Positions 11 to 20,661 of a stretch of DNA of 64,000 bases are shown piece by piece. The translations under genes were made by a program, and so were the position numbers. The notes under the pieces are model-generated. The model saw only the letters and a program-made list of their open reading frames with translations. It was not told where the DNA came from and made no database searches. Source of the DNA: Candidatus Microgenomates bacterium (GTDB lineage Bacteria > Patescibacteriota > JACPGU01); the NCBI GenBank assembly GCA_016188915.1, contig JACPGU010000001.1:34111-98110 (forward strand). The letters run 5' to 3'. Every line of letters begins with the position of its first letter. Within the stretch, counting starts at the first letter, position 1.

Positions 11-2767
11 GTGGACATCGCCTCTATTATCTTTGACATTGTGCGTCTATTGCTTTATGCCCTGATTATCGCTGGGTGGTTTTGGGGTTTTTTGCTATTG
101 GCTAATGCTTACAAAAAAAGACGCAAAAGATTTTGGTTAGTCAAACAAGAATATACTACTTTGTTGGTCCAAGTACCGCGCAATAATGAAAAAGGCCCAT
201 TGTCTGCTCAATTGATGTTTGCTTCTATTCACGGTATTTATAAATCGGCCAAAGAGAGACTATCCGAAGGATCTTTTCAAGAGCACATCAGCTTTGAGAT
301 AGTTTCAATGAGCAAATATATTAAATTTTATGTCTATGTGCCGACCCATCTGAAAGATTTCATAGAGGGCCAGATTTACTCTCAATACCCGACCGTGGAA
401 ATGCGCGAAGTAGATGATTATACCTTGGCTAGGAGATCAGAGGGAATGCATTTTGTCGGCACCGAATTGGCTCTGGTCAAAAATGATTACTATCCTATCA
501 AGACCTTTGTTAATTTTGAAGTAGATCCGCTAGCTGGGATTACCGGCGTTTTGTCGCAAGTAGAAGAAGATGAGCAGATTTGGGCGCAATTTTTGGTAAG
601 ACCATTGGATGATAGTTGGCAGAGGAAGGCGATCTCTTATGTTTCAGATTTGAGAGCAGGTAAAAAATCTTCTTTCGCCGGCAAAGGAGTAGGGGGAATT
701 TTTAGTTTTTTGGGTTTGGTTTTAAAGGCTTTGAGCGCGCCACCAGAACAGGGGACAGCGGCCAAACCAGTCAAATTAGCCGGACCGGTAGAGCAGGCCG
801 TCAAGGCGATTGAGGACAAATCCACCAAACTGGGCTATGAAGTAAAAATCCGTCTAGCTTTTTTGTCGGACAAAGATCCAGAATCGATGAAGATCAAAAT
901 TCAATCTATCGTGGGCGCTTTCAAACAATACAATTCTTCCAATCTTAATGGTTTTGCTCACAAGAGTACCCATATGGACGATTTTGATTTTATGAACAAA
1001 TTACAGACACGCAGTTTTGAGGAGCCAGGCTTTGTTTTGAATATTGAAGAATTAGCTTCTTTGTACCATTTGCCAACGGCAACCGTTGAGACACCGAGTA
1101 TCGTCTGGGCGGGAGCTAAAAAAGGCGAACCACCGGCAATTTTGCCACTAGAAGGAGTAGTGCCGTCAGATCAATTAACTGCCTTTGCTCAAACTAATTT
1201 TCGCAATAAGGTGGCTAATTTTGGTATCAAATTAGACGATCGTCGCCGTCATATGTATATCATTGGACAAACCGGTACAGGTAAATCCAATATGATGAAA
1301 AGCATGGTCTTGGACGACATCAGAGAGGGGAGGGGATTGGCGGTTATTGATCCGCATGGCGAATTCATTGATACGGCGTTAGACTATATTCCGGAAAATC
1401 GTATTAAAGACGTAGTGGTGATTAACCCGGGCGATAGAGAATACAGCGTTGGTTTTAATTTGTTGGAAAATATCGATCCGGACAGAAGGGAGATTTTAGC
1501 GTCCGGAATGATGTCTATTTTTAAAAAAATCTGGGAAAATGTCTGGTCGGCCAGGATGGAATATATTATGAAAAATATCCTCCTCGCGCTTTTGGAAACG
1601 CCGGGTTCTACTTTGCTTGGCGCGACTAAAATGTTGGTCAATGCCGAATATCGCAGAATGATCGTGGACAATATCACCGACCCTGTAGTGAAAGAATTTT
1701 GGATCGCCGAATTTGAGAATCAGCTGAAAACCAATCCCAAATTTGCCACTGAGGCGGTGGCGCCGATCCAGAACAAAATCGGTCAATTCATCGCCGTACC
1801 CTCTATCCGCAATATCATTGGTCAGCCCAAAAGCACGATTGATATTAAAGAGATTATGGATAACAAAAAAATCCTTTTGGTCAAAATTTCCAAAGGCGAG
1901 ATCGGCGATGACAATATGGCGCTTTTGGGAGCAATGTTGATCACCAAAATACAGCTAACAGCGATGGAAAGATCAGGGACGAGAGAAGAAGAGATGCAAG
2001 ATTTTTATCTCTATGTTGATGAATTCCAAAATTTTGCCACCAGCTCTTTCGCCACTATTTTGTCTGAAGCGAGAAAATACAAATTGAACCTGATTATCGC
2101 CCACCAGTATATCGCTCAAATGACGCAGGAGGTTAGAGACGCGGTGATAGGCAATGCCGGCACAGTGGTGGCTTTTCGTGTCGGTCCGGACGACGCGCCT
2201 ATTTTGAAAAAAGTTTTTGAGCCAGTTTTTGACGAAAACGACCTTTTGAATTTGAGCAATTTTCATATTTATATCAAATTGATGATTGACAATACGGTCA
2301 ATCCGGCTTTTTCAGCTATTACCTTACCCTATACGCGCAATCAAAAGCCCGAGGGTAATCGACAGGCTATTCTAGAGCGCTCCCGCCATAATTTTGCGAT
2401 TAATAGGGGAGTGGTAGAGCAAGCGATTCTGACTTGGAGCCAGCAGATGGCAGAGTTGGAAGAAAGCGCGAAAAAATTAGGTAAAAAAGGTAAAAAAGAA
2501 AATAGGGAAGAGGGAGAAACAAAAATAATCGGCGACATAGCTTATCGTGAGATTAAAGACAAAAAAGGCGGTATCTGGTATGTTAGAAAAGATAAAATTG
2601 GTGATAACGCGAATACGGAAGAGGGGAGTAGGGGGCACGAGGGTATTCGTGATATAAAAATAGCAGAGAATGAAATCGCGGAAGATATGATTTTAACAAA
2701 AAGCGATGGCAGCAATAACAGGGTAGGGGAGGAGGCTTTGACGCCCGGGCAGACGGTGGAATTGTAA
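11..2767 (+). CDS. Membrane-anchored P-loop ATPase of the VirB4/TraG (T4SS) - HerA/DUF87 superfamily, paralog 1. The N-terminus may be truncated by the window edge or start at GTG 11.
   Basis: 918-aa ORF with an N-terminal hydrophobic segment. Walker A is IIGQTGTGKSNMM followed by VIDPHGE; Walker B-like is LYVDEFQNF, then ARKYKLNLIIAHQ. Homologous to ORF 6307..8814 (shared ELAS(L/I)(Y/F)H(L/F)P...TPSIVW block). Confidence 0.6.
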   Translation: MDIASIIFDIVRLLLYALIIAGWFWGFLLLANAYKKRRKRFWLVKQEYTTLLVQVPRNNEKGPLSAQLMFASIHGIYKSAKERLSEGSFQEHISFEIVSMSKYIKFYVYVPTHLKDFIEGQIYSQYPTVEMREVDDYTLARRSEGMHFVGTELALVKNDYYPIKTFVNFEVDPLAGITGVLSQVEEDEQIWAQFLVRPLDDSWQRKAISYVSDLRAGKKSSFAGKGVGGIFSFLGLVLKALSAPPEQGTAAKPVKLAGPVEQAVKAIEDKSTKLGYEVKIRLAFLSDKDPESMKIKIQSIVGAFKQYNSSNLNGFAHKSTHMDDFDFMNKLQTRSFEEPGFVLNIEELASLYHLPTATVETPSIVWAGAKKGEPPAILPLEGVVPSDQLTAFAQTNFRNKVANFGIKLDDRRRHMYIIGQTGTGKSNMMKSMVLDDIREGRGLAVIDPHGEFIDTALDYIPENRIKDVVVINPGDREYSVGFNLLENIDPDRREILASGMMSIFKKIWENVWSARMEYIMKNILLALLETPGSTLLGATKMLVNAEYRRMIVDNITDPVVKEFWIAEFENQLKTNPKFATEAVAPIQNKIGQFIAVPSIRNIIGQPKSTIDIKEIMDNKKILLVKISKGEIGDDNMALLGAMLITKIQLTAMERSGTREEEMQDFYLYVDEFQNFATSSFATILSEARKYKLNLIIAHQYIAQMTQEVRDAVIGNAGTVVAFRVGPDDAPILKKVFEPVFDENDLLNLSNFHIYIKLMIDNTVNPAFSAITLPYTRNQKPEGNRQAILERSRHNFAINRGVVEQAILTWSQQMAELEESAKKLGKKGKKENREEGETKIIGDIAYREIKDKKGGIWYVRKDKIGDNANTEEGSRGHEGIRDIKIAENEIAEDMILTKSDGSNNRVGEEALTPGQTVEL

Positions 2768-2980: not shown

Positions 2981-3103
2981 GATGAATATAGTTTTATCGT
3001 CGGTCTTAGTGGTTGTGCTTCTCTTTTTTTCTCTGGAGAATAATGGCGTGATTTTTCGCTTTCCAAAATCTATACGACCTATAAGTCACGGCCGTGAGTT
3101 ATA
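2981..3103 (+). CDS. Tiny hydrophobic peptide (40 aa) MNIVLSSVLVVVLLFFSLENNG...; the 3' end runs into palindrome A.
   Basis: RBS aaaaaggaggga upstream of ATG 2981 (alternative GTG 2978). Hydrophobic N-terminal helix. Confidence 0.3.
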
Positions 3104-3112
3104 GGTCGTATA
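3071..3112. promoter_or_regulatory. 42-bp near-perfect palindrome TATACGACCTATAAGTCACG-GC-CGTGAGTTATAGGTCGTATA (palindrome A), operator-like.
   Basis: Read directly from the sequence. The arm CGTGAGTTATAGGT is shared with the palindrome at 14669..14698. Confidence 0.5.
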
Positions 3113-3282: not shown

Positions 3283-3762
3283 GTGGCGAAAATCCTTCGT
3301 GTTACAGGATTCTTTTTTCAGAAAGGAATAAGGCTTGGCTTTGGGTTTGACGATGATGGAGAAAGGATCCCAGGTGTGGTGGCGTTGATAACCGCCACGG
3401 AATTTTTAGGCGCAATTTATATTTCCGAAGAGGAAGCAGGAGGAGATTTGTTTGACATCTTGGAGCATGGCAGGGGTCGCAATGAGCCCGGCGTTGATGC
3501 TTCTAGCCTTTCGGAGATTAAACTGACGGACGAGGAGTTCTCCTTCGTCAAGACATATAAAGACGGAAAGCCCCCGGTTCAGTACTCTTACCGCAAACAC
3601 CCAGACAGCAATGACAAGGTCAGTCCCTGGAAAGGGGAGTGGGTGATAGAAGCCGATGACGAGAGCGGAGAAGAGCGAGGCCCCACCAACTGCATGCTCG
3701 TGGAAATGCCGGAGTGGCTCTACGAGGCGCCAAAAGACTACGACTGGCCGGAGGGCGCATAG
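3283..3762 (+). CDS. Hypothetical acidic protein (159 aa).
   Basis: ORF with RBS aaaaaaaggagagacagcc before a GTG start. Upstream TGaTATAAT extended -10 at ~3199-3207. No recognisable domain. Confidence 0.45.
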   Translation: MAKILRVTGFFFQKGIRLGFGFDDDGERIPGVVALITATEFLGAIYISEEEAGGDLFDILEHGRGRNEPGVDASSLSEIKLTDEEFSFVKTYKDGKPPVQYSYRKHPDSNDKVSPWKGEWVIEADDESGEERGPTNCMLVEMPEWLYEAPKDYDWPEGA

Positions 3763-3798
3763 CAGATCTTTCTTGACTAAACTGAAAGGAGAGAGGGC

Positions 3799-4179
3799 AT
3801 GAAAATAGTTAAGTTTTTCTGGGTGCGATCAATGGCGAATGGGAAGGCGAAGGTATACCCCGCCGATCCAAAAGACTATGGCAAGACTTACCCCAGAACG
3901 GCCGTCGAATTCCGGGGCAAAGAGTCTTTTTTGAATGTTGGTTCTGGGATGAGAAGGATTGTGACAATAGATCACCGCGATAGAATATTTGTCGAAAAAG
4001 ATTCCAGTCCAGGGATCTATGGCAGTTTTGGAGTGATACTGCCAATCAAAAGAGGGTTAACTAAAAGGCAGATTGTCAGTAAAATTCTCAAAAAGTGGGA
4101 AGCCGAGGCCAGGGAAGGCATGGAATACAAAGACGGAGTCATGAGGGAAAGAATTTTCAGGGTGGAGGTGACGCTTTAA
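3799..4179 (+). CDS. Hypothetical protein (126 aa).
   Basis: ORF with RBS aaaggagagagggc before ATG. Followed by a double-hairpin terminator. Confidence 0.5.
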   Translation: MKIVKFFWVRSMANGKAKVYPADPKDYGKTYPRTAVEFRGKESFLNVGSGMRRIVTIDHRDRIFVEKDSSPGIYGSFGVILPIKRGLTKRQIVSKILKKWEAEAREGMEYKDGVMRERIFRVEVTL

Positions 4180-10074: not shown

Positions 10075-11381
10075 ATGGTTACTAGAAAAAATAAAATCGA
10101 ACTCCTCTCCCCCGCTGGAGATTTGCCGCGACTGAAAACCGCGGTGGCTTTCGGTGCCGATGCGGTTTATTGCGGCTTGCCCCAATGGAGTCTGCGCAAT
10201 ATCCGCGAGATTCAATTCAACGAGGAAACTATCCGCGAAGGTGTCACCTTCGCGCACGAGCGTGGAGTGAAAGTCTATGTTACCTGCAATATCTTTCCGC
10301 ACGAAAGCCATATCAAATTGCTAAAAAAAGATCTGGCAAAATTGAACAAGATCGGTTTTGACGGGATTATTCTCTCTGATATCGGTATGCTTTCTTTGGC
10401 AAAAGAATTTGCTCCGGATATTCCGATTCATCTCTCAACTCAAGCCAATACGACGAATTCCGAAGCGATAAAAATGTGGCAAGTTTTGGGCGTGAAAAGA
10501 GTAATTTTGGCGCGGGAGCTATCTCTCTTAGAAATCAAAAAAATCCACGAAGCCGTGCCGGACATAGAGCTGGAAATCTTTGTCCATGGTGCGATGTGTA
10601 TGGCGTATTCCGGGCGTTGTTTGCTATCCAAACATTATACCGGTCGCGATGCCAATCTGGGCGATTGCGCGAATTCCTGTCGATGGAAATATCAAGTAAA
10701 GAACAAGGCACCGGAAAAAGTTTTCGTGCAAGAAGAAAGTCGGCCGGATGACGCGCTGGAAATTTCGGAAGATGAGCACGGGACTTATTTTATGAATGCC
10801 AAAGACCTTTCCGCCTTGGATATTTTAGACCAAGTGCTGGATAGTGGCGTGGTCTCGGTGAAAATTGAAGGGCGGGCCAAAAGCATTTATTATGTCGGTA
10901 TGATTACGCGCCTTTACCGGCAAGCGTTAGATAGCCTTTACGCCGGTAAAAAAGTGGATGAGAAACTTTTTGCGGAATTGGATATGGTGGCCAATCGTGG
11001 TTACAACCACGGCTTTTTACTCGGTCGCGATGGCTATGAGCAAGAATACGATGTGGCGGCGATCAAACCAAATCTTGATTTCTTGGGACAAGTGTCGGAA
11101 GTTCAAGATTCAAAGTTTAAAAATTATGATATTAAAAATTCTTTAAAAATTACAAAATTAAAAATTAAAAATTACGTTCTTGTCGAGGTAAAAAATAAAT
11201 TTGCCGTGGGTGATGAGGTGGAAATAGTGACGCCGGACCAAATCGTTAAAACAAAAATTACCGAGATTTTTGATAATGGCAGTTTGGTTTCCGAGATCAA
11301 AAAACCCGGTGAAATGGTGGAAGTTTCCTTTGCTATAGGCGAAGGCGTTCCCCCCTACTCTCTAATCAGAAGGAAGAAAAA

Positions 11382-11385
<4 letters not shown>
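10075..11385 (+). CDS. Peptidase U32 family protein (collagenase-like; YhbU/RlhA family).
   Basis: ELLSPAGD...GADAVYCG...AHERGVKVYVT...FVHGAMC motifs typical of U32. Carries an in-frame KFKNYDIKNSLKITKLKIKNY insert from an AAAATT array. A TACAAT -10 lies 7 nt upstream of the ATG (possibly leaderless). Confidence 0.8.
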
Positions 11386-12780
<1,395 letters not shown>

Positions 12781-13596
12781 TTATTTTGGCAAATAAATAA
12801 CAGATAAATATAAAACGAATAATGATATCACCAGAACCATCAGATCTTTCCAGTCCCAAAATTTCTTTTTCTTCTCTTGCTCTAGTAGCTCCAAAGCATT
12901 CTTCATGGCAATTCTTGGAATAGGGAATCTTTTGTCGTTATTATAATATTCTTGTTTTGTGCCAATTCCGATTCCGCTCATATGAGCACTCTCTTTTATG
13001 GAATACAATAACCCAATAAAGTTGACTACCTCCACTTCTTTGTCTTCTTTTTTGTCTTCTTTTCTTTTAGACAAAGCATCCTTTATCTCCGCGAAGCTTT
13101 TTGAGTCATTATTTAGACCTAACTCTGTAATTATCTCAGATGCTCTATACGCTAAAGAGGCATTAGAAGAAATACAATTTTCGTATCTTTGAACATGTTG
13201 ATTGAAGCGCGAAATACCGACGCTAAGAGATATTAGAGACTCTATAAGCTCTTTGCTTATATAGCTTGCGTATGGACTAGCGATAGCACCTTGAATGCCG
13301 TGATTAGCCGTTATCTCGAATATATACACAAGGATACCATACCAACTTTTATATGTATTAGATTGCTCTGATAGCGGTAACTCAAAAAAATATTTTTTGT
13401 TTAACCATTCTCCAACCCACTCTAGCTCTTTTCCTAACGATACAAGAAAGCTATCGCGTATTTTTTTGTTAGCGGATCTAAAAGTAAACCATGCGACCAA
13501 AAGTGTCATAATAGTAGCCAGCGTTGCTGGATCAATGATTTTGGCCATCTCCCAAAAAGACATTATAAGTTTTATTTCTGTTAGTATTGATATCAT
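12781..13596 (-). CDS. Hypothetical membrane protein (N- and C-terminal TM helices).
   Basis: 271-aa ORF; the start is possibly internal. No recognisable domain. Confidence 0.4.
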   Translation of the reverse strand: MISILTEIKLIMSFWEMAKIIDPATLATIMTLLVAWFTFRSANKKIRDSFLVSLGKELEWVGEWLNKKYFFELPLSEQSNTYKSWYGILVYIFEITANHGIQGAIASPYASYISKELIESLISLSVGISRFNQHVQRYENCISSNASLAYRASEIITELGLNNDSKSFAEIKDALSKRKEDKKEDKEVEVVNFIGLLYSIKESAHMSGIGIGTKQEYYNNDKRFPIPRIAMKNALELLEQEKKKKFWDWKDLMVLVISLFVLYLSVIYLPK

Positions 13597-13661
13597 TAGC
13601 TGTCGTTATTGTTATCTTTACATTCTATCAAAAAAGCGGGTTTTTGTCCCGCTTTTTTGAA

Positions 13662-14162
13662 TCACACTAGTTCTTCGGATGTAAGTATATGTGTCAGCGG
13701 GCACGAGATGTCTCCATCTCCTCTTTTTACCACCACATAGCAACCAACAATCTCTGCTCCAGTGGGCTCGACGATTTCAATCATTTTTTTAAGACTACCG
13801 CCTGTAGTGAAAACATCATCGACAATCGCGACTTTATCTTTTTCGTTGGGGATATACCCGTCAATCCAATTATTTTTACCATGCTCCTTTGGTTTATCGC
13901 GAACCAAGGTCAGATGGATTTTGTGTTTAAAAGACAATGTTGTGGCGAGTGGCAGACCGCCATAGCCTCCAGCTACGATGCTTGTGATGCTTTGATCTAT
14001 TCTTTTCCACACTTCATCAGCCATCATATTTAGCGCGCCGGGATCACCGTAGGCCTTCTTGATGTCCACATAAAAATCTGCCATTCCGGCATTCTTCAAA
14101 TTCACTGGATTTTGATAAATAATATCCAGCTCTTGCAATTTTTTTATCAATTCATCGCGCAT
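13662..14162 (-). CDS. Phosphoribosyltransferase, orotate phosphoribosyltransferase-like.
   Basis: PRPP-binding motif VAIVDDVFTTGGS; size ~166 aa. Confidence 0.6.
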   Translation of the reverse strand: MRDELIKKLQELDIIYQNPVNLKNAGMADFYVDIKKAYGDPGALNMMADEVWKRIDQSITSIVAGGYGGLPLATTLSFKHKIHLTLVRDKPKEHGKNNWIDGYIPNEKDKVAIVDDVFTTGGSLKKMIEIVEPTGAEIVGCYVVVKRGDGDISCPLTHILTSEELV

Positions 14163-14190
14163 ATACTCGATCTAAAATCTAAAACTCCTA

Positions 14191-14586
14191 TTATTCCGTC
14201 GTTTTGCCATCAAAATGTTCTTCATTGGTCATCGCGTCTACTTTGGTCGGGTGGATAGTGCCGTCTTTATGCTCGGCGGGAGAATAAATGGTGTAGAGCT
14301 TCAATTCCACATCATTTGAGGTATTGACGATATTGTGTTTGACGCCTTCGGGGATAACGACCGCCGAGCCGTCGGTCAGCGGATGTTCCACATCGTTTAG
14401 CACCGCCTTCCCCTCCCCCGCTTCCACGCGGATGAATTGGTCGAGCGTATGTACCTCCTCCCCGATCTCCTCCCCCACTTTGAGCGACATCACGACCAGC
14501 TGACTATGGGGCGCGGTGTATAGCACTTTCCGAAAATTCTCATTGGCCAACGACTCTTTTTCAATATTGACTACATATCCTTTCAT
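14191..14586 (-). CDS. Cupin domain protein.
   Basis: Cupin_2-like G(x)5HxH...E...H pattern (GEEIGEEVHTLDQFIRVEAGEG...VVIPEGVKHNI). Confidence 0.65.
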   Translation of the reverse strand: MKGYVVNIEKESLANENFRKVLYTAPHSQLVVMSLKVGEEIGEEVHTLDQFIRVEAGEGKAVLNDVEHPLTDGSAVVIPEGVKHNIVNTSNDVELKLYTIYSPAEHKDGTIHPTKVDAMTNEEHFDGKTTE

Positions 14587-14668
14587 AATGAATTTTTAAT
14601 GATAAACATAATCCAATTATAGCATATACTTTTCTAATTTCTAAGACGATGTCATCTTAAGACACATG

Positions 14669-14698
14669 ACCTATAACTCACGACCGTGAGTTATAGGT
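14669..14698. promoter_or_regulatory. Palindrome B: ACCTATAACTCACG-AC-CGTGAGTTATAGGT, about 80 nt upstream of the cupin gene start. Same family as palindrome A.
   Basis: Perfect 14-bp arms; shares CGTGAGTTATAGGT with 3071..3112. Confidence 0.5.
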
Positions 14699-14756
14699 TA
14701 TGTGAGATGCTAAGAGCAGCTAGTTTGAGCAAGGAACTCCTTTTCGCCAAACAAAA

Positions 14757-14790
14757 AACCGCCCGAATGGGACGGTTTGGGTTGACGAGA
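14757..14790 (-). terminator. Rho-independent terminator (minus strand) after the tandem-repeat protein gene.
   Basis: On the minus strand ccgtcccattcgggcgg is followed by TTTTTTGTTT. Confidence 0.45.
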
Positions 14791-14805
14791 AGTTTTCTGG
14801 AGAGA

Positions 14806-15393
14806 TCAACTCTCCAATGCTTCCTCCCACCCTTTGATGATTTCTTCCAAGAGAGGCCTCACTTTCTCGCATTTCAGAGCTTCTTGGAATATCTTGATGG
14901 CGTCAGAGTCTCCCTCACGCACCAGATCCTTCAGGATATCAATGGCGTGGCGGTTCCCCTCTCTCACCAGATCCTTCAAGATCTTGATGGCATCATGGTC
15001 TCCCTCACGCATCAGATCCTTCAGGATATCAATGGCGTGGCGGTTCCCCTCTCTCACCAGATCCTGCAAGACCTTAGCGGCGATGAAGTTCCCCTCATTC
15101 ACCAGATCCTTCAAGATCTTGATGGCATCATGGTCTCCCTCACGCACCAGATCCTTCAGGATCTCGATGGCGCTGGAGTATCCATCATGCACCAGATCCT
15201 TCAGGTTATCAATGGCGTGAGGGTCTCCTGTCCGCACCAAGCTCTTCAAGACCCCGGTGGCGCGGAGGTCTTCTTTGCGCACTTGTTTTACCAGGTCCGC
15301 TATTTCTATTTCTTCTTCCCTCCTCTTGGATGCAAAACGTTCGAGAAGGGCATCAAGCCGTTCTTGTAAAGCCACCAGCAGTTCATTTGACAT
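14806..15393 (-). CDS. Tandem-repeat alpha-helical protein: about 8 copies of the 15-aa unit AI(D/K)ILKDLVREG(D/N)(H/R)(H/D), giving a 45/90-nt DNA period.
   Basis: G-rich RBS (aagggggggggaaagactg) before ATG 15393; terminator downstream. The antisense ORF 14686..15369 is also open but lacks start signals. Confidence 0.55.
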   Translation of the reverse strand: MSNELLVALQERLDALLERFASKRREEEIEIADLVKQVRKEDLRATGVLKSLVRTGDPHAIDNLKDLVHDGYSSAIEILKDLVREGDHDAIKILKDLVNEGNFIAAKVLQDLVREGNRHAIDILKDLMREGDHDAIKILKDLVREGNRHAIDILKDLVREGDSDAIKIFQEALKCEKVRPLLEEIIKGWEEALES

Positions 15394-15528
15394 CAGTCTT
15401 TCCCCCCCCCTTAGCCCTTTTATCAAGGAACAGTATTTCCCGATAATATATCGAGATATTGGCATTATGCTAAAAAACCCTAATATTAGCAAATAGTTAT
15501 GTTGTTTCTTGACCTATAGAAACTACTC

Positions 15529-15559
15529 AAAAGGGGCGGGTTAGAAACCCGCCCCTTTT
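15529..15559. terminator. Bidirectional terminator (aaaaggggcgggtt agaa acccgcccctttt) 3' of rplL.
   Basis: Perfect 13-bp stem with an A-run and a T-run. Confidence 0.7.
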
Positions 15560-15607
15560 GAGCTACTAAATTCTAAATCCTAAACACTAAATTCTAACCC
15601 CTAAACG

Positions 15608-15988
15608 CTATTTCAAAGCCACTTTCCCTCCTGCCGCTTCGATCTTCGCTTTCATATTTTCGGCGTCTTCTTTTTTCACATTTTCTTTGAGCATCTTCGG
15701 CGCGCCGTCAACCAAGTCCTTGGCTTCTTTGAGTCCCAATTCCGGCAAAACTTCACGGATCGCCTTGATGACATTGATCTTGGCTTCGCCCGAGGCGGTT
15801 AGCTCGACATTGAAAGCGGACTTTTCTTCAGCAGGTGCGGCTGCTTCTCCCCCGCCGGCTGGCATGGCTCCCATCATCATTGGGGCGGCCGCAGTCACAC
15901 CGAATTTTTCTTCCAAAGCCTTCACTAATTCAGCGACCTCGGTTAGCTTCAACTTTTCTATTTCCTCTACGATTTTGTCTATTGCCAT
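15608..15988 (-). CDS. rplL: 50S ribosomal protein L7/L12.
   Basis: [31 protein letters not shown]...[12 protein letters not shown] aggaaggag before ATG 15988. The ORF track extends to GTG 16036 through an AAAATT array. Confidence 0.9.
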
Positions 15989-16031
15989 GATAATCTCCTT
16001 CCTACAAATAATTTTGTAATTTTTAATTTTG

Positions 16032-16096
16032 CCCACGCCTTTGGCGGGGTCCCGCCTACTATTTTATTCTCAAAAAGATGTGGCGGGATAATTTTG
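16032..16096 (-). repeat. Copy 1 of the ~65-nt conserved core element, located in the rplJ-rplL spacer and flanked by AAAATT arrays.
   Basis: About 85-98% identical to 34252..34316 (same strand) and to 51235..51298 (reverse complement). Contains mutually exclusive GC stems: ggcggg/cccgcc/ggcggg. Confidence 0.8.
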
Positions 16097-16173
16097 TAAA
16101 TAAATCTTAATTTTTAAAAATTGAAAATTTAAACATTATTTAAAAATTCAAAAATTAAAAATTGAAAAATTTC

Positions 16174-16692
16174 TCAAACCTGTTTTTCCGAAACTGCCTT
16201 CAAAACATACACCAGTCTTTGGGCAAAATTGTTCATTGCGCCAGCGAAATTATTCCCCGGAGCTTTGACGACCCACAAGAGCTTGGTAAGCAATTCTTCT
16301 TTGTTTGGCAGGTCAGCCAAGGCCTCCATTTCTTCACGATTCAAGAATCGACCTTCATAAAATCCACCGAGGATTTTGATGTTTTCATTTTTCTTGCCGG
16401 CTTTCTTGACTTCTTTCGCGACCGAGACTTCGTCTTGATTGGAATACGCCAAGGCTAGAGACTCTCCACCGACGATTTCTTGGAGTTTTTCTTTGTCGCC
16501 AAAAGCCAATCCCGCCAGAGAAACTTTGGTGACAGTGAATTTCCCGCCTTTGCTTCTCAAAGTTTTTCTCAAGGAATCCAAATCTTCCATCTTCATTCCT
16601 CGATAATCGGTGAAAGTGATGGCTTTGGCGCCGGCAATCTGCTCTTTGATTTTCTCCAGATCTGATTGTTTTTGGAGTTTACTTTTCGGCAT
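16174..16692 (-). CDS. rplJ: 50S ribosomal protein L10.
   Basis: L10 family sequence; start MPKSKL with RBS aaaggaaaaag (ORF track start 16743). Confidence 0.85.
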   Translation of the reverse strand: MPKSKLQKQSDLEKIKEQIAGAKAITFTDYRGMKMEDLDSLRKTLRSKGGKFTVTKVSLAGLAFGDKEKLQEIVGGESLALAYSNQDEVSVAKEVKKAGKKNENIKILGGFYEGRFLNREEMEALADLPNKEELLTKLLWVVKAPGNNFAGAMNNFAQRLVYVLKAVSEKQV

Positions 16693-16847
16693 CGAAGCTT
16701 TTTCCTTTAAATAGATAATAAAAAAGGCCTTTTCCAAGACCAAATATGCATCGAAACGATGCTATTCCTGCGCGGGTCTTCTGTCTTGCGACTGCCTGCG
16801 GTCTTTGGAACTTTTTTCATTTTATCTCAAAAAATATCTCTCGTCAA
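16693..16847 (-). promoter_or_regulatory. Sigma70-like promoter (TTGACG-17-TAAAAT at ~16847-16819) plus ~120-nt structured leader upstream of rplJ; candidate L10 autoregulatory leader.
   Basis: Hexamers with 17-bp spacing on the minus strand; the GC-rich leader gcaggcagtcgcaagacagaagacccgcgcagg is atypical for this AT-rich genome. Confidence 0.4.
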
Positions 16848-16876
16848 GACAAAAAACATAACCCCCTTTTAGGAGG

Positions 16877-17470
16877 TTATTTGCCCAAGATGCGAAGCAA
16901 CTGGGCTGAAAAAGGTAAGGCCTGATGGCCATGAGTAGTCCAGGGAATATTCTGAACTAATTTCTTTGCATCATCAGGAGTAAGGGTGATGTTGCTTTGA
17001 GCAAGGCGCTGGAAGAAATCCGAGAGTTCTCTTTTGGCATTTTCCAAGATGCCCTCTTCCATCTGGATTCTTTCAGCTGCCAACCTCTCCCTGCCTCCTT
17101 TGATGTGAAGGAGAATTTGCTCAAGATTGAGCAAGATTTCTGGTCGATCCGAGCCTTCTTTTGATGACCCGAAAGATGATGGGAAAAGTTTTTCTATTTT
17201 TTCCAAAATATCACCTATGGCTCGGCCAACTTTCGTTCCGTCTCCCATGGCCATAATGTGAAAATCCTCACCCAATTCATCAGATACTTCTTTTTTGGCC
17301 ACATCAACCAAATGCTTAATGTCGCTCAAAAGTTTTTCGCCTTCCAGGATTGATCTCTTTGTTAAAAGAGCCTGGATATCGGTGAAAAGTTTGGTCAAGT
17401 GCCGATCTACCATCTGATACGCCAACTCCCATCCATCGGAGGAGCCGGTCCTTTCTTCTCTGGCGTTCAT
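16877..17470 (-). CDS. Hypothetical protein (197 aa).
   Basis: ORF only. Confidence 0.45.
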   Translation of the reverse strand: MNAREERTGSSDGWELAYQMVDRHLTKLFTDIQALLTKRSILEGEKLLSDIKHLVDVAKKEVSDELGEDFHIMAMGDGTKVGRAIGDILEKIEKLFPSSFGSSKEGSDRPEILLNLEQILLHIKGGRERLAAERIQMEEGILENAKRELSDFFQRLAQSNITLTPDDAKKLVQNIPWTTHGHQALPFSAQLLRILGK

Positions 17471-17613
17471 AGCGCTCTCCTTCTAGATTTTGGGATTTTA
17501 AGGCGGCATTCTTTCTCGTATGCTTATTATAGCGCTAATTAGTCTTCCTAGCAATGATTCCATTATCAAAAAAAGCGATTCCTATCTTTTGTGGATAGGA
17601 ATCGCTTGGCTTG

Positions 17614-19416
17614 TTAGCGCATAAGAATATGCGTTTTGAGTTTGGTGTTAAATTGATCTATTTTGGTGGCATTACCCTTGGTCGTCATCGTGCAATTGCC
17701 AAGTTTCGTTTTGCCGGTACATTCTGCTTCGCCAATTTTCTCACAATCAGTGATTCTACCATCAGAATCAAAAGACAAAGGTCCCTCCTGGTCGCAGATG
17801 GTAAAGATATCGCCTATCTCAATCGCGTCCTTGTCTCCAGTCGCAAGATAGCACCCCAGGGACATAGTGTCGTTGTTGAAGCAAAAGAAATCGTTCGGCG
17901 TAATCTCTAAAACATACGACTTGGTATTGATGGTGAATTTGTAATCGCAAGGATCACTCATGGCGAACAAATCATCGTTACTGCCGGAACAACCAGAAAT
18001 TTCAGCTGGCAAAGGATGAAAATGCAAAAGACTTCTATCCTTCATAAGCATATTGGGATGACGGCAGCCAGCAATAACAGAGCCTTTTTTCAAAAGGAGC
18101 TCCGATCGGCATAAAAAATAAAAAGACATTCTCTCCTCTACTTTGTCCGCGGTCTCAAAATTGTAGCTCTGACCTTCTGTTGATGCCTTGACTATTCGCG
18201 CGACGATTCTGCCGGATGAAGAGATTTTGTTTTCTTCATCTTTTAAAATCACCGGTCCATTAGTGCGAGGAGTTTCTTCTCCAGCTTTGGGCAGACGAGG
18301 CATTTCGCCAGTCAGCAAAAATGCCGAAGTGATCATTACATAGGGAATCTCCAGAACATAATTGGTAGTCTCACGCAGAATTTCTCTGTCAGTGAAAGAA
18401 AAATCATACCAACCATTGCGGTTTTTGATGATATCCAGCTCTTCGTATTTTTCTCCGTTTTTATAGATGATAAGGCTGGACATAGGATTGAGCAAAGAAT
18501 TTTCACGAGTCTTGAAGCGACCAAATATCTTTGCTTTTCCCTCCTTTACTTCAGAGACTATTTTGCTGGGAGCAGGATCTATCTCCAATTGAGTGATCCC
18601 GCGAGTAGCAATAGTAGAGTGCTCAGACAGAGCCGCCAAGATAGATTCTTGGCTTTTGGTGGCAGCTACAAAAGTTGCCACGCTCTCCCCTGTCGGCAAA
18701 TTAAAAGTGGAGCCAGCTAGTTTACTGTGATAGTCAGCTCCGCCGATGGCGGCTGGCCCGCTATCTTTATTCTGCGCGGACAAAAAAGCCCGGAGATGAT
18801 AGTCGTAATTGTCCACATAGCCAGTAGCGCTAACATCATTCATTAGCTCAAAGCCATCAAAAAGCCGTAAATTATCTTCCCATTTTCGGCAATCTTTCAG
18901 GTGGTTTAAGATGGTAAAAGATTTTTCGCCCTGTAAAATAGCTAAAACTTTTTCCAAATCTTCTTCTCTGTAGGCCGGGTCATAGAGATAGAGATTGGCC
19001 GTTTTGGAGATAGCGTTCAGATGACAATAGCTTTCAGCGGGAACTTTTGCCACCACTATTTCGCGGCCAGCGATAGCGACAAAATCAGAATCGTTCAATC
19101 TTTTTACTGCCTCTAGATAATCCCCAAAAGAATTCACCTCTGGATGCTCATGCGGATAAGGCAGAATATTGGCGAGCCGAATATCTTTATGTCCAGAGGC
19201 GTAGTCGGTCAAAAAACAATCCGCGTGGTCGGTGAAAATAATAGCTTCATAGCCTAATTTCTGCGCTATTTCTTTGACTTTTCGCGGGCAATTGGTGCCA
19301 TCGGAATAACAAGTGTGAACATGCACCCATATTGGCAACATTTCCGACGAATAAATCGCACCTGAAAAAATCAAAAAAAATAGAATCCCCCATATACCAA
19401 CAGCCGTTTTTTTCAT
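17614..19416 (-). CDS. Secreted/membrane-anchored PHP-domain metallophosphoesterase with a Cys-rich C-terminal domain.
   Basis: N-terminal TM segment/signal peptide. PHP motif IWVHVHTCYSDG...IIFTDHAD. The C-terminal ~150 aa carry >12 Cys. Confidence 0.6.
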   Translation of the reverse strand: MKKTAVGIWGILFFLIFSGAIYSSEMLPIWVHVHTCYSDGTNCPRKVKEIAQKLGYEAIIFTDHADCFLTDYASGHKDIRLANILPYPHEHPEVNSFGDYLEAVKRLNDSDFVAIAGREIVVAKVPAESYCHLNAISKTANLYLYDPAYREEDLEKVLAILQGEKSFTILNHLKDCRKWEDNLRLFDGFELMNDVSATGYVDNYDYHLRAFLSAQNKDSGPAAIGGADYHSKLAGSTFNLPTGESVATFVAATKSQESILAALSEHSTIATRGITQLEIDPAPSKIVSEVKEGKAKIFGRFKTRENSLLNPMSSLIIYKNGEKYEELDIIKNRNGWYDFSFTDREILRETTNYVLEIPYVMITSAFLLTGEMPRLPKAGEETPRTNGPVILKDEENKISSSGRIVARIVKASTEGQSYNFETADKVEERMSFYFLCRSELLLKKGSVIAGCRHPNMLMKDRSLLHFHPLPAEISGCSGSNDDLFAMSDPCDYKFTINTKSYVLEITPNDFFCFNNDTMSLGCYLATGDKDAIEIGDIFTICDQEGPLSFDSDGRITDCEKIGEAECTGKTKLGNCTMTTKGNATKIDQFNTKLKTHILMR

Positions 19417-19437
19417 TGCTCTCTCCTTGTCAGATTG

Positions 19438-19944
19438 TTAAGGAATTTTCAAAGAATCTAAAATTTTTTGAAAAACTTTTTCTCCATCAGGGTAGGTATT
19501 TGGATTATATCCAAAACCGATGCTATACAAATATTGATTAGAGATAAACTTTATGTCGAAAAGTCGGCCAGCAGTCACGTCTGGTTTCTCAAAAGTTCTC
19601 AAAAAAGCCTTTTTGCCGGAAATATTAATCTCTTCGCTTTTTATTTCATTACTTTTAGTATCGGCTAGTTCTTTTTCTTTCTCCACGTGGATAGTGATCT
19701 CTGCCCCCTGGCGATATTCCAGTGTTGTATCAGTCAGCAAACCATTAAAATCAGGCGTGGCAGCGCTCCAAGCATAAATAAAATCCCCTCCTCTATTTTC
19801 GTTCTCCTGCCAAGCGCCTGGCAAACTCAAAGAAAAATACTCATTTTTTATTATAGAATTGGCCTTAAAGGTTTGGGAGATCAAAAAACCCGCTAAAATA
19901 GCAATGGCGACAAAAATAATTAATTGAAAAATTATTTTTTTCAT
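19438..19944 (-). CDS. Membrane-anchored hypothetical protein.
   Basis: N-terminal TM helix; ORF only. Confidence 0.45.
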   Translation of the reverse strand: MKKIIFQLIIFVAIAILAGFLISQTFKANSIIKNEYFSLSLPGAWQENENRGGDFIYAWSAATPDFNGLLTDTTLEYRQGAEITIHVEKEKELADTKSNEIKSEEINISGKKAFLRTFEKPDVTAGRLFDIKFISNQYLYSIGFGYNPNTYPDGEKVFQKILDSLKIP

Positions 19945-19971
19945 TGCTAAAATTTTGTTTTGGCGAAAGTT

Positions 19972-20661
19972 TTATATTTTGCTCAATTCTACTTTTACTC
20001 CCGGTCCCATAGTGGAAGAAAGGTAAATTGATTTTACAAGATTGCCTTTGACAGCATTAGGTTTGGCGGCGTTAAGAGCATTGTAGAATTTTTTGAAATT
20101 TTCCAGTAAATCTTCATCCGGGAAAGATACTTTACCGATGCCGATGTGGATTCCTCCAAGCGAGTCGGAACGAAATTCAATTTTACCTTTTTTGAATTCC
20201 TCCACGGTTTTGCTGATATCATTGGTGACTGTGCCGGCTTTTGGATTGGGCATCAGACCTTTTGAACCTAGTATTTTTGCGATTTTTGCTATTTTAGGCA
20301 TTGCTTCAATGGTAGCAACAGCAATGTCAAAACCAGTCCAGCCCTTGGTTATTTTTTCTGTCATATTCTCCAATCCGATGAAATCGGCTCCGGCTGTTTT
20401 GGCGGCTTTTTCATCTTTTTCTCCAACTAGAGCCAGTATTTTTAATGTTTTGCCGGTACCCTTGGGTAGGACAACAGTAGAACGAACGTTTTGTTCCGGT
20501 TTGGCTAGATCAATATTTAGCTTCAAATGCGCTTCAATCGTAGCATCAAATTTAGCTGAGTTGGTTTTTTTGACCAACGCAATCGCCTCTCCCGCGGTGT
20601 AGGTCTTTTTCAAATCCAAATCTTTGATAGCTTCGCGATATTTTTTGCCGTGAGTTTTCAT
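19972..20661 (-). CDS. rplA: 50S ribosomal protein L1.
   Basis: L1 family sequence (MKTHGKKYREA...VVLPKGTGK...). Confidence 0.9.
   Translation of the reverse strand: MKTHGKKYREAIKDLDLKKTYTAGEAIALVKKTNSAKFDATIEAHLKLNIDLAKPEQNVRSTVVLPKGTGKTLKILALVGEKDEKAAKTAGADFIGLENMTEKITKGWTGFDIAVATIEAMPKIAKIAKILGSKGLMPNPKAGTVTNDISKTVEEFKKGKIEFRSDSLGGIHIGIGKVSFPDEDLLENFKKFYNALNAAKPNAVKGNLVKSIYLSSTMGPGVKVELSKI

What the first reader, a model, noticed from the sequence alone, without database searches (positions are those of the whole stretch)
14806..15393. Tandem-repeat protein built from ~8 copies of a 15-aa helix unit (90-nt DNA period) in a GC-rich island
The minus-strand ORF has a G-rich RBS and its own terminator. 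It encodes AI(D/K)ILKDLVREG(D/N)(H/R)(H/D) repeated with alternating variants. The nucleotide repeats are near-perfect, suggesting recent expansion. The antisense frame is also open across the repeats (SLTHQILQDINGVAV...). Local GC is clearly above the genome background, and the gene sits next to palindrome B. It could be a variable surface/adaptor protein or a repeat-scaffold. Half-length HEAT/armadillo-like repeats of this regularity are unusual.
Basis: seen in the sequence. Interest (0 to 1): 0.6.

Follow-up and report, generated by a model that had tools for sequence, protein, structure and literature searches.

The report
Orphan HEAT-like helical repeat protein gene
A small species-specific gene in an uncultured groundwater bacterium (Patescibacteria) encodes a protein built from nine copies of a 15-residue helix-turn unit; it is predicted to stack into an ordinary HEAT-like helical solenoid, so it is real but not extraordinary.

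Summary
Window 14806..15393 (-) is a 195-aa ORF with 8 good copies and 1 degenerate copy of a 15-aa unit, A-I-x-I-L-K-D-L-V-R-E-G-D/N-x-x. It has a G-rich ribosome-binding site, a promoter-like site and its own terminator. The minus strand is the coding one: codon usage and a confident AlphaFold model support it, and the antisense ORF fails both tests. The antisense frame is open only because codons TTA, CTA and TCA are absent after codon 9.

The model is a plain alpha-alpha solenoid of 12-residue helices and 3-residue turns. The unit resembles the second helix of PBS-lyase-type HEAT repeats. Pfam HEAT_2 and HEAT_PBS both score just below their cut-offs.

No orthologue was found. The nearest relative carries three other genes at this spot, and more distant relatives go straight from rplL to tgt, so the gene sits in a variable accessory slot. 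Distant database proteins, mostly unannotated, carry arrays of the same 15-aa motif.

"Near-perfect repeats" is overstated. "Surface protein" is unsupported: there is no signal peptide. The most likely role is a cytoplasmic protein-binding scaffold, which is an inference. I rate it a new variant of a known kind, of modest interest.

The parts
14806..15393 (-). Coding sequence of the 195-aa repeat protein (ATG 15393, stop 14806-14808)
   Evidence: ORF list. Codon-usage score is +0.34 bit/codon, against 0.24+-0.08 for the window's long genes; the other five frames are negative. AlphaFold mean pLDDT is 83.6 and pTM 0.72. An independent gene call on L003/L004 uses the same start.
15262..15393 (-). 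N-terminal non-repeat part (residues 1-44): one long charged helix, modelled with low confidence
   Evidence: AlphaFold helix 3-39 with pLDDT 50-58. The sequence shows no hydrophobic signal or membrane segment on direct reading.
14857..15261 (-). Array of nine 15-aa (45-nt) helix-turn units (residues 45-179). Units 1-7 are well conserved; units 0 and 8 are degenerate.
   Evidence: Tandem Repeats Finder; unit table and identity matrix. AlphaFold gives 12-residue helices separated by 3-residue turns, with pLDDT 89-97.
14806..14856 (-). C-terminal capping helix (residues 180-195, PLLEEIIKGWEEALES) and stop codon
   Evidence: AlphaFold helix 179-194; sequence.
15402..15410 (-). G9 tract serving as the G-rich ribosome-binding site, ending 8 nt before the ATG
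   Evidence: Sequence. It is the only run of 8 or more G in the window. It is identical in L003 and L004.
15445..15492 (-). Two overlapping sigma-70-like promoter matches (TTGCTA-17-CATAAT and TTAGCA-17-TATATT), between the rplL terminator and the start codon
   Evidence: Consensus scan, 9 of 12 positions each. These are consensus matches only and have not been shown to function.
14756..14778 (-). Terminator-like hairpin (AAACCGTCCC-ATTC-GGGCGGTTT) followed by TTTTGTTT, 28 nt after the stop codon
   Evidence: Terminator scan; sequence.
15525..15563 (-). Strong hairpin (17-18 bp stem) ending the upstream rplJ-rplL unit. It insulates the repeat gene and is the last base-level homology with the nearest relative L005.
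14663..14704 (.). 20-nt-arm palindrome ('palindrome B') at the downstream edge of the genome-specific segment, with a second copy at 3078-3105
14625..15526 (-). Segment of about 900 bp with no counterpart in the closest genome. It holds the promoter, gene, terminator and palindrome.
   Evidence: blastn of window 11000-20000 against L005-L008; ORFs of L005.
14686..15369 (+). Antisense ORF (227 aa), judged non-coding
   Evidence: Codon score is -0.03 bit/codon. There are no family hits. AlphaFold gives pLDDT 43 and pTM 0.25. The frame is open only because the sense gene has no TTA, CTA or TCA codon after codon 9.

Best explanation
This is a real, separately transcribed minus-strand gene in a Patescibacteria (CPR) chromosome. 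It encodes a soluble, mildly acidic 22-kDa alpha-solenoid. The protein has a long N-terminal helix, then nine 15-residue helix-turn units, then a capping helix. In each unit the helix is xxA(I)x(I)LKDLVR and the turn is EG(D/N).

Each unit corresponds to the second ('B') helix of PBS-lyase-type HEAT repeats. Both layers of the solenoid are therefore built from the same interchangeable unit. The array grew by duplication or unequal recombination of blocks of two and three units.

The gene is a lineage-specific accessory gene in a variable slot between rplL and tgt.

Shown here: the coding strand, the repeat anatomy, the predicted fold, the absence of orthologues and the variable locus.

Inferred: like other stand-alone HEAT-type solenoids, it works as a cytoplasmic protein-binding scaffold or adaptor. 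The binding surface would be formed by the positions that vary between units (3, 10, 13-15), which sit at the helix ends and turns.
For: - Coding strand: codon usage; sense model pLDDT 83.6 against 43 for the antisense; ribosome-binding site, promoter-like site and terminator; same orientation as all neighbouring genes.
- Repeat anatomy and duplication history. The A and B unit types are marked by synonymous codons. Exact 53-nt and 48-nt repeats lie at offsets of 90 and 135 nt.
- Family signal: HEAT_2 scores 27.1 bits (cut-off 27.7) and HEAT_PBS 17.9 (cut-off 20.9). An exhaustive HMMER search gave 120 hits at E<=1e-3. Of 45 scanned, 16 match HEAT_2, 8 HEAT_PBS and 6 Sel1. hhalign places the unit on the 'GDERAVDALINALQDAD' half of canonical repeats.
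- Accessory status: no relative in the genome, metagenome, phage or plasmid collections. There is no paralogue in the window. The synteny break is shown.
Against: - No orthologue, no expression data and no partner are known, so the binding function is inference only.
- Synonymous versus non-synonymous counts between units do not distinguish the sense from the antisense frame, so selection on the protein is not demonstrated.
- Both Pfam HEAT models fall just short of their thresholds.
- Structural matches are generic, with TM <= 0.44.
- The AlphaFold model was made from a single sequence.
- Copy number in the window is not independently verified, because the Logan contigs break inside the array.
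Confidence: 0.6

Rival explanations
1. Young proto-gene or by-product ORF. A 45/90-nt DNA tandem repeat expanded in a variable intergenic slot and happens to be open. Any protein made has no selected function.
For: - No orthologue even in a genome whose rplL is 90% identical.
- Synonymous versus non-synonymous counts do not favour the sense frame.
- The antisense frame is also open.
- The NCBIfam model 'translation of Lactobacillus palindromic repeat' reaches 26.1 bits, above its cut-off of 24.
- Each unit has a small palindromic core, and the RNA folds well below shuffled controls, z = -5.1.
Against: - The gene has a complete expression signal set and codon usage typical of the genome.
- It has non-repeat N- and C-terminal caps, as real solenoids do.
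- The hydrophobic pattern is kept across units despite synonymous codon changes.
- The AlphaFold model is very confident.
- The same motif is arrayed in unrelated organisms' proteins.
- The NCBIfam score is a sum with no single significant stretch.
- The unit as a whole is no more self-complementary than shuffles.
Confidence: 0.15
2. Variable host-interaction or surface protein of an episymbiotic CPR cell. Repeat number, and possibly the G9 tract, would vary to switch or tune it, as in a contingency locus.
For: - The organism is a CPR bacterium.
- The repeats are recombination-prone, with exact 48-53-nt blocks.
- A G9 tract lies in the ribosome-binding site.
- The gene sits in a variable genomic slot.
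Against: - There is no signal peptide, lipobox or membrane segment at the favoured start, from direct reading of the sequence.
- The G9 tract and both flanks are identical in all three assemblies available.
- A G run of this length is not rarer than in shuffles.
- No copy-number data exist.
Confidence: 0.1
3. Defence-related or anti-defence solenoid, for example an immunity protein, a decoy or the sensor module of a defence system.
For: - The gene is accessory and lies in a variable slot.
- Some distant hits join the same repeats to TIR/LRR/TPR architectures (P0004).
- The protein is mildly acidic, pI 5.1.
Against: - There is no PADLOC hit, and only weak PHROG hits (E >= 2e-4) to families of unknown function with no significant stretch, for the gene; its neighbours hit nothing in either library.
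- No toxin, nuclease or NTPase gene is adjacent; the neighbours are rplL and a cupin.
- There is no phage or plasmid relative.
Confidence: 0.08
4. The plus-strand ORF 14686..15369 is the real gene.
For: It is open for 227 codons, and its synonymous/non-synonymous pattern is as good as that of the sense frame.
Against: - Codon score is -0.03 bit/codon.
- There is no family hit.
- AlphaFold gives pLDDT 43 and pTM 0.25.
- It starts at a GTG inside the palindrome and runs against all neighbouring genes.
- Its openness follows from the sense gene's lack of TTA, CTA and TCA codons.
Confidence: 0.02

Closest known systems
PBS-lyase-type HEAT-like repeats (Pfam HEAT_PBS PF03130 and HEAT_2 PF13646; the natural family behind the artificial alphaRep proteins)
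   Same: - Short antiparallel helices are joined by G-D/N turns and stack into a solenoid.
- The unit motif (G)(D/N)xxA(I/V)xxLxxL...(D/G) matches the second helix 'DERAVDALIKALQDAD' of canonical repeats.
- These are the best Pfam models for the query and for its database hits.
- alphaRep structures are among the best Foldseek matches.
   Different: - Canonical repeats are 31-32 aa long, with two different helices: A is 'VRxxAAxALGxIG' and B is 'AVxxLIxALxDxD'.
- Here both helices are B-like and the period is 15 aa.
- The two unit types occur in either layer, in the order A A B B A B A B.
- Pfam scores are just below threshold.
Uncharacterised database proteins with arrays of the same 15-aa motif (P0005 'HEAT repeat protein', P0003, P0016, P0017, P0038, P0060, P0001 of Magnetospirillum moscoviense)
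   Same: They share the 15-aa period and the motif A-x3-L-x2-L-(A/V)-x2-G-(N/D)-x2. E-values reach 1e-29.
   Different: - Identity is only 23-37% over the arrays, and the scores are inflated by repetition.
- Most are large multidomain proteins from unrelated bacteria or eukaryote-like sources.
- None is a full-length orthologue, and none has a known function.
Sel1-like repeats (Pfam PF08238)
   Same: Both are alpha-alpha solenoids with a '(A)xxG(N/D)xxA' turn motif. Sel1 proteins appear among the structural matches, and 6 of 45 sequence hits match Sel1.
   Different: Sel1 units are 36-44 aa. The Sel1 model itself gives no hit on the query; only the Wolframin Sel1-like repeat model hits, at E = 0.11.
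De novo designed helical repeat proteins (DHR and similar)
   Same: These are idealised, near-identical short helix-turn units. They are the best sequence matches in the PDB (8f6r, 5cwp) and high among the fold matches.
   Different: They are artificial. The similarity is compositional and architectural, not evolutionary (E >= 2e-4, TM about 0.2).

Membership tests
Pfam HEAT_2 (PF13646) | Whole-protein score at or above the gathering cut-off of 27.7 bits | tested here: not met
   27.1 bits, E = 5.3e-6. This is a marginal miss. 16 of 45 distant hits do match the model.
Pfam HEAT_PBS (PF03130) | Whole-protein score at or above 20.9 bits | tested here: not met
   17.9 bits, E = 0.0043.
HEAT / PBS-lyase-type repeat (structural definition) | Repeat of about 30-40 aa made of two distinct antiparallel helices (A and B) that form separate layers | tested here: not met
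   The period is 15 aa. Both helices have the same motif. The unit types A A B B A B A B do not map consistently to layers.
HEAT / PBS-lyase-type repeat (structural definition) | Stacked antiparallel helix pairs that form an alpha-alpha solenoid | tested here: met
   The AlphaFold model has ten 11-12-residue helices joined by 3-residue turns, with pLDDT 89-97 over the array. It matches alphaRep, API5, karyopherin and TOG-type solenoids. This rests on a prediction, not an experiment.
HEAT / PBS-lyase-type repeat (sequence homology) | Profile-profile match of the unit to canonical repeats | tested here: inconclusive
   hhalign of a 30-column unit profile against canonical 31-aa repeats gave E = 9e-4 but probability 23%, over 20 columns, on the B-helix half.
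Sel1 repeat (PF08238) | Match to the Sel1 model; unit of 36-44 aa | tested here: not met
   No Sel1 hit at E <= 10; only WSLR at E = 0.11. The unit is 15 aa.
NCBIfam NF040509 'translation of Lactobacillus palindromic repeat' | Score at or above the cut-off of 24 bits; the ORF is a by-product of a palindromic DNA repeat | tested here: inconclusive
   Whole-protein score is 26.1 bits, but no single stretch is significant. The antisense ORF does not hit the model. The unit is not self-complementary beyond chance, 22 of 45 nt against a null of 20.2+-2.1. Other coding evidence is strong.
Phase-variable contingency gene | Length variation of a homopolymer or repeat tract among cells or strains | tested here: not met
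   The G9 tract and both flanks are identical in the window, L003 and L004. This covers only three assemblies and no read-level data. Repeat number is not testable because the contigs break in the array.
Secreted or surface protein | N-terminal signal peptide, lipobox or membrane anchor | tested here: not met
   Judged by direct reading of residues 1-44: a charged helix with no hydrophobic segment. No signal-peptide predictor was available. The upstream in-frame TTG at 15492 would add a hydrophobic 33-aa extension. However, it lies in the promoter-like region, has no Shine-Dalgarno sequence, and was not chosen by the independent gene call.
Known anti-phage defence systems (PADLOC) | Match to a PADLOC model, in the gene or its neighbours | tested here: not met
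   No hit.

The most novel reading that the evidence does not exclude
The 15-residue helix-turn unit may be a distinct natural repeat class, a 'single-helix' HEAT derivative. One interchangeable unit would build both layers of the solenoid, so arrays could gain or lose odd numbers of helices; the 135-nt duplication here fits this. In this CPR bacterium the gene would be a fast-evolving, recently expanded binding module for a host, phage or ribosome-associated partner.
Probability: 0.2. Interest if true: 0.5.

Novelty: new variant of a known kind. Interest (0 to 1): 0.28.

Why it matters
If the reading is right, it gives a natural example of an idealised alpha-solenoid whose two helices are the same unit. 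Nature would then have reached something close to what protein designers build. Arrays of this 15-aa motif currently escape Pfam thresholds, so a dedicated profile would annotate a scattered set of 'hypothetical' proteins.

For CPR biology it adds one more lineage-specific accessory gene, and it marks the rplL-tgt junction as a variable slot. It does not open a long-standing question, and no function can be assigned without experiments.

Tried and rejected
- Word-indexed protein search with the protein and with a seven-sequence profile of 15-aa arrays (A6). Both returned nothing, even though members of A6 come from that collection. The second search was wasted.
- Exact look-up of the protein in public assemblies: not on record.
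- Scans of genome and metagenome contigs with the protein: no relative. tblastn against 164 fetched loci found only the same organism's fragments. Phages and plasmids gave none.
- Synonymous versus non-synonymous counting between units, to decide the coding strand: not discriminating, 42/111 for the sense frame against 49/104 for the antisense.
- PDB sequence search with the protein and with a unit profile. It found only designed repeat proteins and a weak ClpC N-domain motif (LVREGEGIAAKAL, E about 0.02), judged convergent.
- The afdb50 fold library was unavailable. The viral library gave only weak Sel1-type matches from giant viruses.
- Rfam and tRNA scans of the window: nothing, so no known RNA explains the repeat.
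- CRISPR-like array: rejected, because the units are contiguous with no spacers and keep the reading frame.
- Global self-complementarity of the unit: not above chance.
- Several top 'hits' with a 15-aa period (P0014, P0018, P0020, P0026, P0050, P0059, P0068, P0095) are unrelated repeats whose scores are inflated by the shared period. They were discarded.
- Foreign origin inferred from GC content: weakened, because the conserved neighbours cupin and rplL have the same GC and GC3.

Full report
**Observation**

The minus strand of window 14806..15393 carries an ORF of 195 codons from ATG 15393. Tandem Repeats Finder reports overlapping arrays with periods of 45, 90 and 135 nt over 14891-15267, with scores of 310-414 and 72-77% matches.

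In protein register, residues 45-164 form eight 15-aa units. A ninth, degenerate unit follows at 165-179. The core sequence is AI(D/E/K)ILKDLVREG(D/N)xx. A1, L5, L8 and G12 are invariant; V9 is M in one unit. Positions 3, 10 and 13-15 vary.

Synonymous codons mark two unit types. Type A uses CTG at L5, CGT at R10 and GGA-GAC at G12-D13. Type B uses TTG, AGA and GGG-AAC. Their order is A A B B A B A B rather than strict alternation. Exact repeats of 53 nt (offset 90) and 48 nt (offset 135) show recent duplication or conversion of two-unit and three-unit blocks. Overall unit identity ranges from 24 to 42 of 45 nt, so 'near-perfect' applies only to sub-blocks.

**Expression signals**

- A G9 tract (15402-15410) ends 8 nt before the ATG.
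- Two promoter-like matches lie at 15445-15492, and a hairpin with a T-run at 14778-14756.
- Upstream, a 17-18-bp hairpin (15525-15563) closes the rplJ-rplL unit.

The gene therefore looks monocistronic and insulated.

**Which strand codes**

A codon-usage log-odds model was trained on 27 long ORFs of the window.

| Frame | Score (bit/codon) |
|---|---|
| Sense frame | +0.34 |
| Training genes | 0.24 ± 0.08 |
| Antisense ORF 14686..15369 | -0.03 |
| Remaining frames (over the gene span) | -0.08 to -0.82 |

AlphaFold2 from the single sequence gives the sense protein a mean pLDDT of 83.6 and pTM of 0.72, with 89-97 across the array. The antisense product gets 43 and 0.25. The antisense product also matches no Pfam or NCBIfam family meaningfully.

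The antisense frame is the codon-aligned one. It is open only because the sense gene has no TTA, CTA or TCA codon after codon 9. That in turn follows from copying a unit that uses CTG and TTG for leucine.

Synonymous versus non-synonymous counts between units do not separate the two strands, so I do not use them as evidence.

**Composition**

The gene has a GC content of 0.514, against a window mean of 0.419 (sd 0.036). That places it in the top 0.4% of 588-bp windows. GC3 is 0.63 against 0.43.

The adjacent conserved genes are alike: cupin 0.50 GC and 0.62 GC3; rplL 0.50 and 0.56. GC content is therefore weak evidence for foreign origin.

**Fold and family**

The model consists of a long N-terminal helix (low confidence), ten helices of 11-12 residues joined by 3-residue turns (E-G-D/N), and a C-terminal helix.

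Structural searches gave only generic solenoid matches:

- Foldseek against the PDB finds alphaRep HEAT-like proteins (probability 0.99, TM 0.35-0.42), Sel1 proteins, API5 and designed repeat proteins. None is better than E = 0.01.
- The viral library gives weak Sel1-type matches.

Sequence models point the same way but fall short:

- Pfam HEAT_2 scores 27.1 bits against a cut-off of 27.7, and HEAT_PBS 17.9 against 20.9.
- The exhaustive HMMER search of 1.84 billion representatives finds 120 proteins at E <= 1e-3. The best is 1.2e-29, at 27-35% identity, and none is a full-length orthologue.
- Of 45 hits scanned, 16 match HEAT_2, 8 HEAT_PBS and 6 Sel1.

By internal periodicity, about a third of the top 60 hits have a 15-aa period. 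The rest have 28-32 or 34-39 aa. The hits sort into three groups:

- True motif-sharing arrays, for example P0005 'DGNDSAIEALRDLAK DGNKDAMDKLIELAK', along with P0003, P0016, P0017, P0038 and P0060.
- Canonical 31-aa PBS-type repeats: P0041, P0033 and P0057.
- Unrelated 15-aa repeats whose scores are period artefacts.

hhalign places the unit on the 'GDERAVDALINALQDAD' (second-helix) half of the canonical repeat, though weakly: E = 9e-4 and probability 23%.

My reading is that this is a HEAT-PBS-like solenoid in which both helices are of the B type. That would explain why a three-unit (odd-numbered) duplication is tolerated.

**Genomic context and origin**

The neighbours are rplJ and rplL upstream, and cupin, a phosphoribosyltransferase, an orphan gene and tgt downstream.

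Relatives found through rplL are all Patescibacteria or CPR metagenome-assembled genomes.

- The closest, L005 (rplL 90% identical), shares DNA up to the rplL terminator (window 15527) and again from 14624. Between those points it has 2.66 kb with three other genes, one of them a TrmB-type regulator.
- L006 and L007 go from rplL straight to tgt.

The 902-bp segment 14625-15526, holding the promoter, gene, terminator and palindrome, is thus specific to this genome and occupies a variable slot.

The same organism occurs in Logan assemblies of SRR12113420 and SRR12113422. There the contigs stop inside the array on both sides and the flanks are 100% identical. Copy number could therefore be neither verified nor compared. 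A neighbouring run in that series, SRR12113421, is cited as the source of 'Ca. Azoamicus agrarius'. This suggests an agricultural groundwater source, but that is an inference.

**Function**

No signal peptide or membrane segment is visible on direct reading of the sequence. The pI is 5.1. There is no PADLOC hit, and PHROG gives only weak matches to families of unknown function. No phage or plasmid relative was found, and there is no paralogue in the window.

The best-supported mechanism is therefore a cytoplasmic alpha-solenoid scaffold or adaptor. Its variable positions (3, 10, 13-15) lie at helix ends and turns and could form a binding surface. This is inferred from the general behaviour of stand-alone HEAT-type proteins and is not shown here.

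The rivals are:

- a functionless young ORF produced by repeat expansion;
- a variable host-interaction protein;
- a defence-related module;
- antisense coding.

I rank them at 0.15, 0.10, 0.08 and 0.02.

The NCBIfam hit 'translation of Lactobacillus palindromic repeat' scores 26.1 bits against a cut-off of 24. It is a sum of weak partial matches with no significant stretch. Because the unit is not self-complementary beyond chance, I treat this hit as a caveat and not as a classification.

**Verdict**

The gene is an orphan HEAT-like helical-repeat protein with a half-length unit in which both helices are alike. It is a new variant of a known kind. It is of modest interest, mainly for repeat-protein evolution and for annotating similar unrecognised arrays.

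Noticed in passing
window 14663-14704 and 3078-3105: A long palindrome (core CCTATAACTCACG-NN-CGTGAGTTATAGG) occurs twice in the window. No matches are expected by chance, and apart from contigs of this same organism (L001, L002) it is absent from the related loci fetched. One copy lies at the edge of the genome-specific segment upstream of the cupin promoter. The other lies downstream of a TraG/VirD4-like gene. It could be an operator, a recombination site or a small mobile palindromic element.
   Followed up: partly
window 15402-15410: This G9 homopolymer is the only run of 8 or more G in 64 kb, and it sits in the ribosome-binding site of the repeat gene. It is identical in two other assemblies of the same organism, so no phase variation is seen. 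Read-level data were not available.
   Followed up: partly
window 11428-16036 compared with L005, L006, L007: The rplL-tgt junction is a variable slot in this CPR lineage. L006 and L007 have rplL followed directly by tgt. L005 has three other genes plus the cupin. The window has the repeat gene, the cupin, a phosphoribosyltransferase and a 271-aa orphan. The 197-aa orphan at 16877-17470 is also missing from L005.
   Followed up: partly
window 15565-15610: A short 21-nt tandem repeat (TTTAGGATTTAGAATTTAGTG-like, 2.2 copies) lies between the rplL stop codon and its terminator hairpin.
   Followed up: no
window 11-2767 and 3283-4179: A 918-aa type IV secretion coupling protein (TrwB/TraG/VirD4-like) is followed by two orphan ORFs. 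This may be part of an integrated conjugative or DNA-uptake element.
   Followed up: partly
window 14925-15195: The repeat gene holds 10 GATC sites, the densest cluster in the window (mean 2.2 per 588 bp). It is a by-product of the AAG-GAT-CTG and AAG-ATC-TTG codons. It would be relevant only if the organism has Dam-type methylation or a GATC restriction system.
   Followed up: partly
window 14890-15265 (-): The mRNA of the array is predicted to fold much more stably than shuffles (-159 against -129 kcal/mol, z = -5.1). Each unit has a 5-6-bp hairpin core (AGATCC-TGAA-GGATCT). This might affect translation or mRNA stability.
   Followed up: partly
window 16102-16163: AT-rich inverted repeats with 25-nt arms, 76-80% complementary, lie in the rplJ-rplL intergenic region.
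   Followed up: no
repeat unit, residues 78-96 and equivalents: The motif ILKDLVREGDHDAIKIL weakly resembles the ClpC/Clp_N repeat motif ILLGLVREGEGIAAKAL (E about 0.02 against the PDB). This is probably convergent.
   Followed up: partly
tool behaviour: The word-indexed protein search returned no hit for a profile built partly from proteins that belong to that collection. Its negative results for repeat proteins should not be over-interpreted.
   Followed up: no
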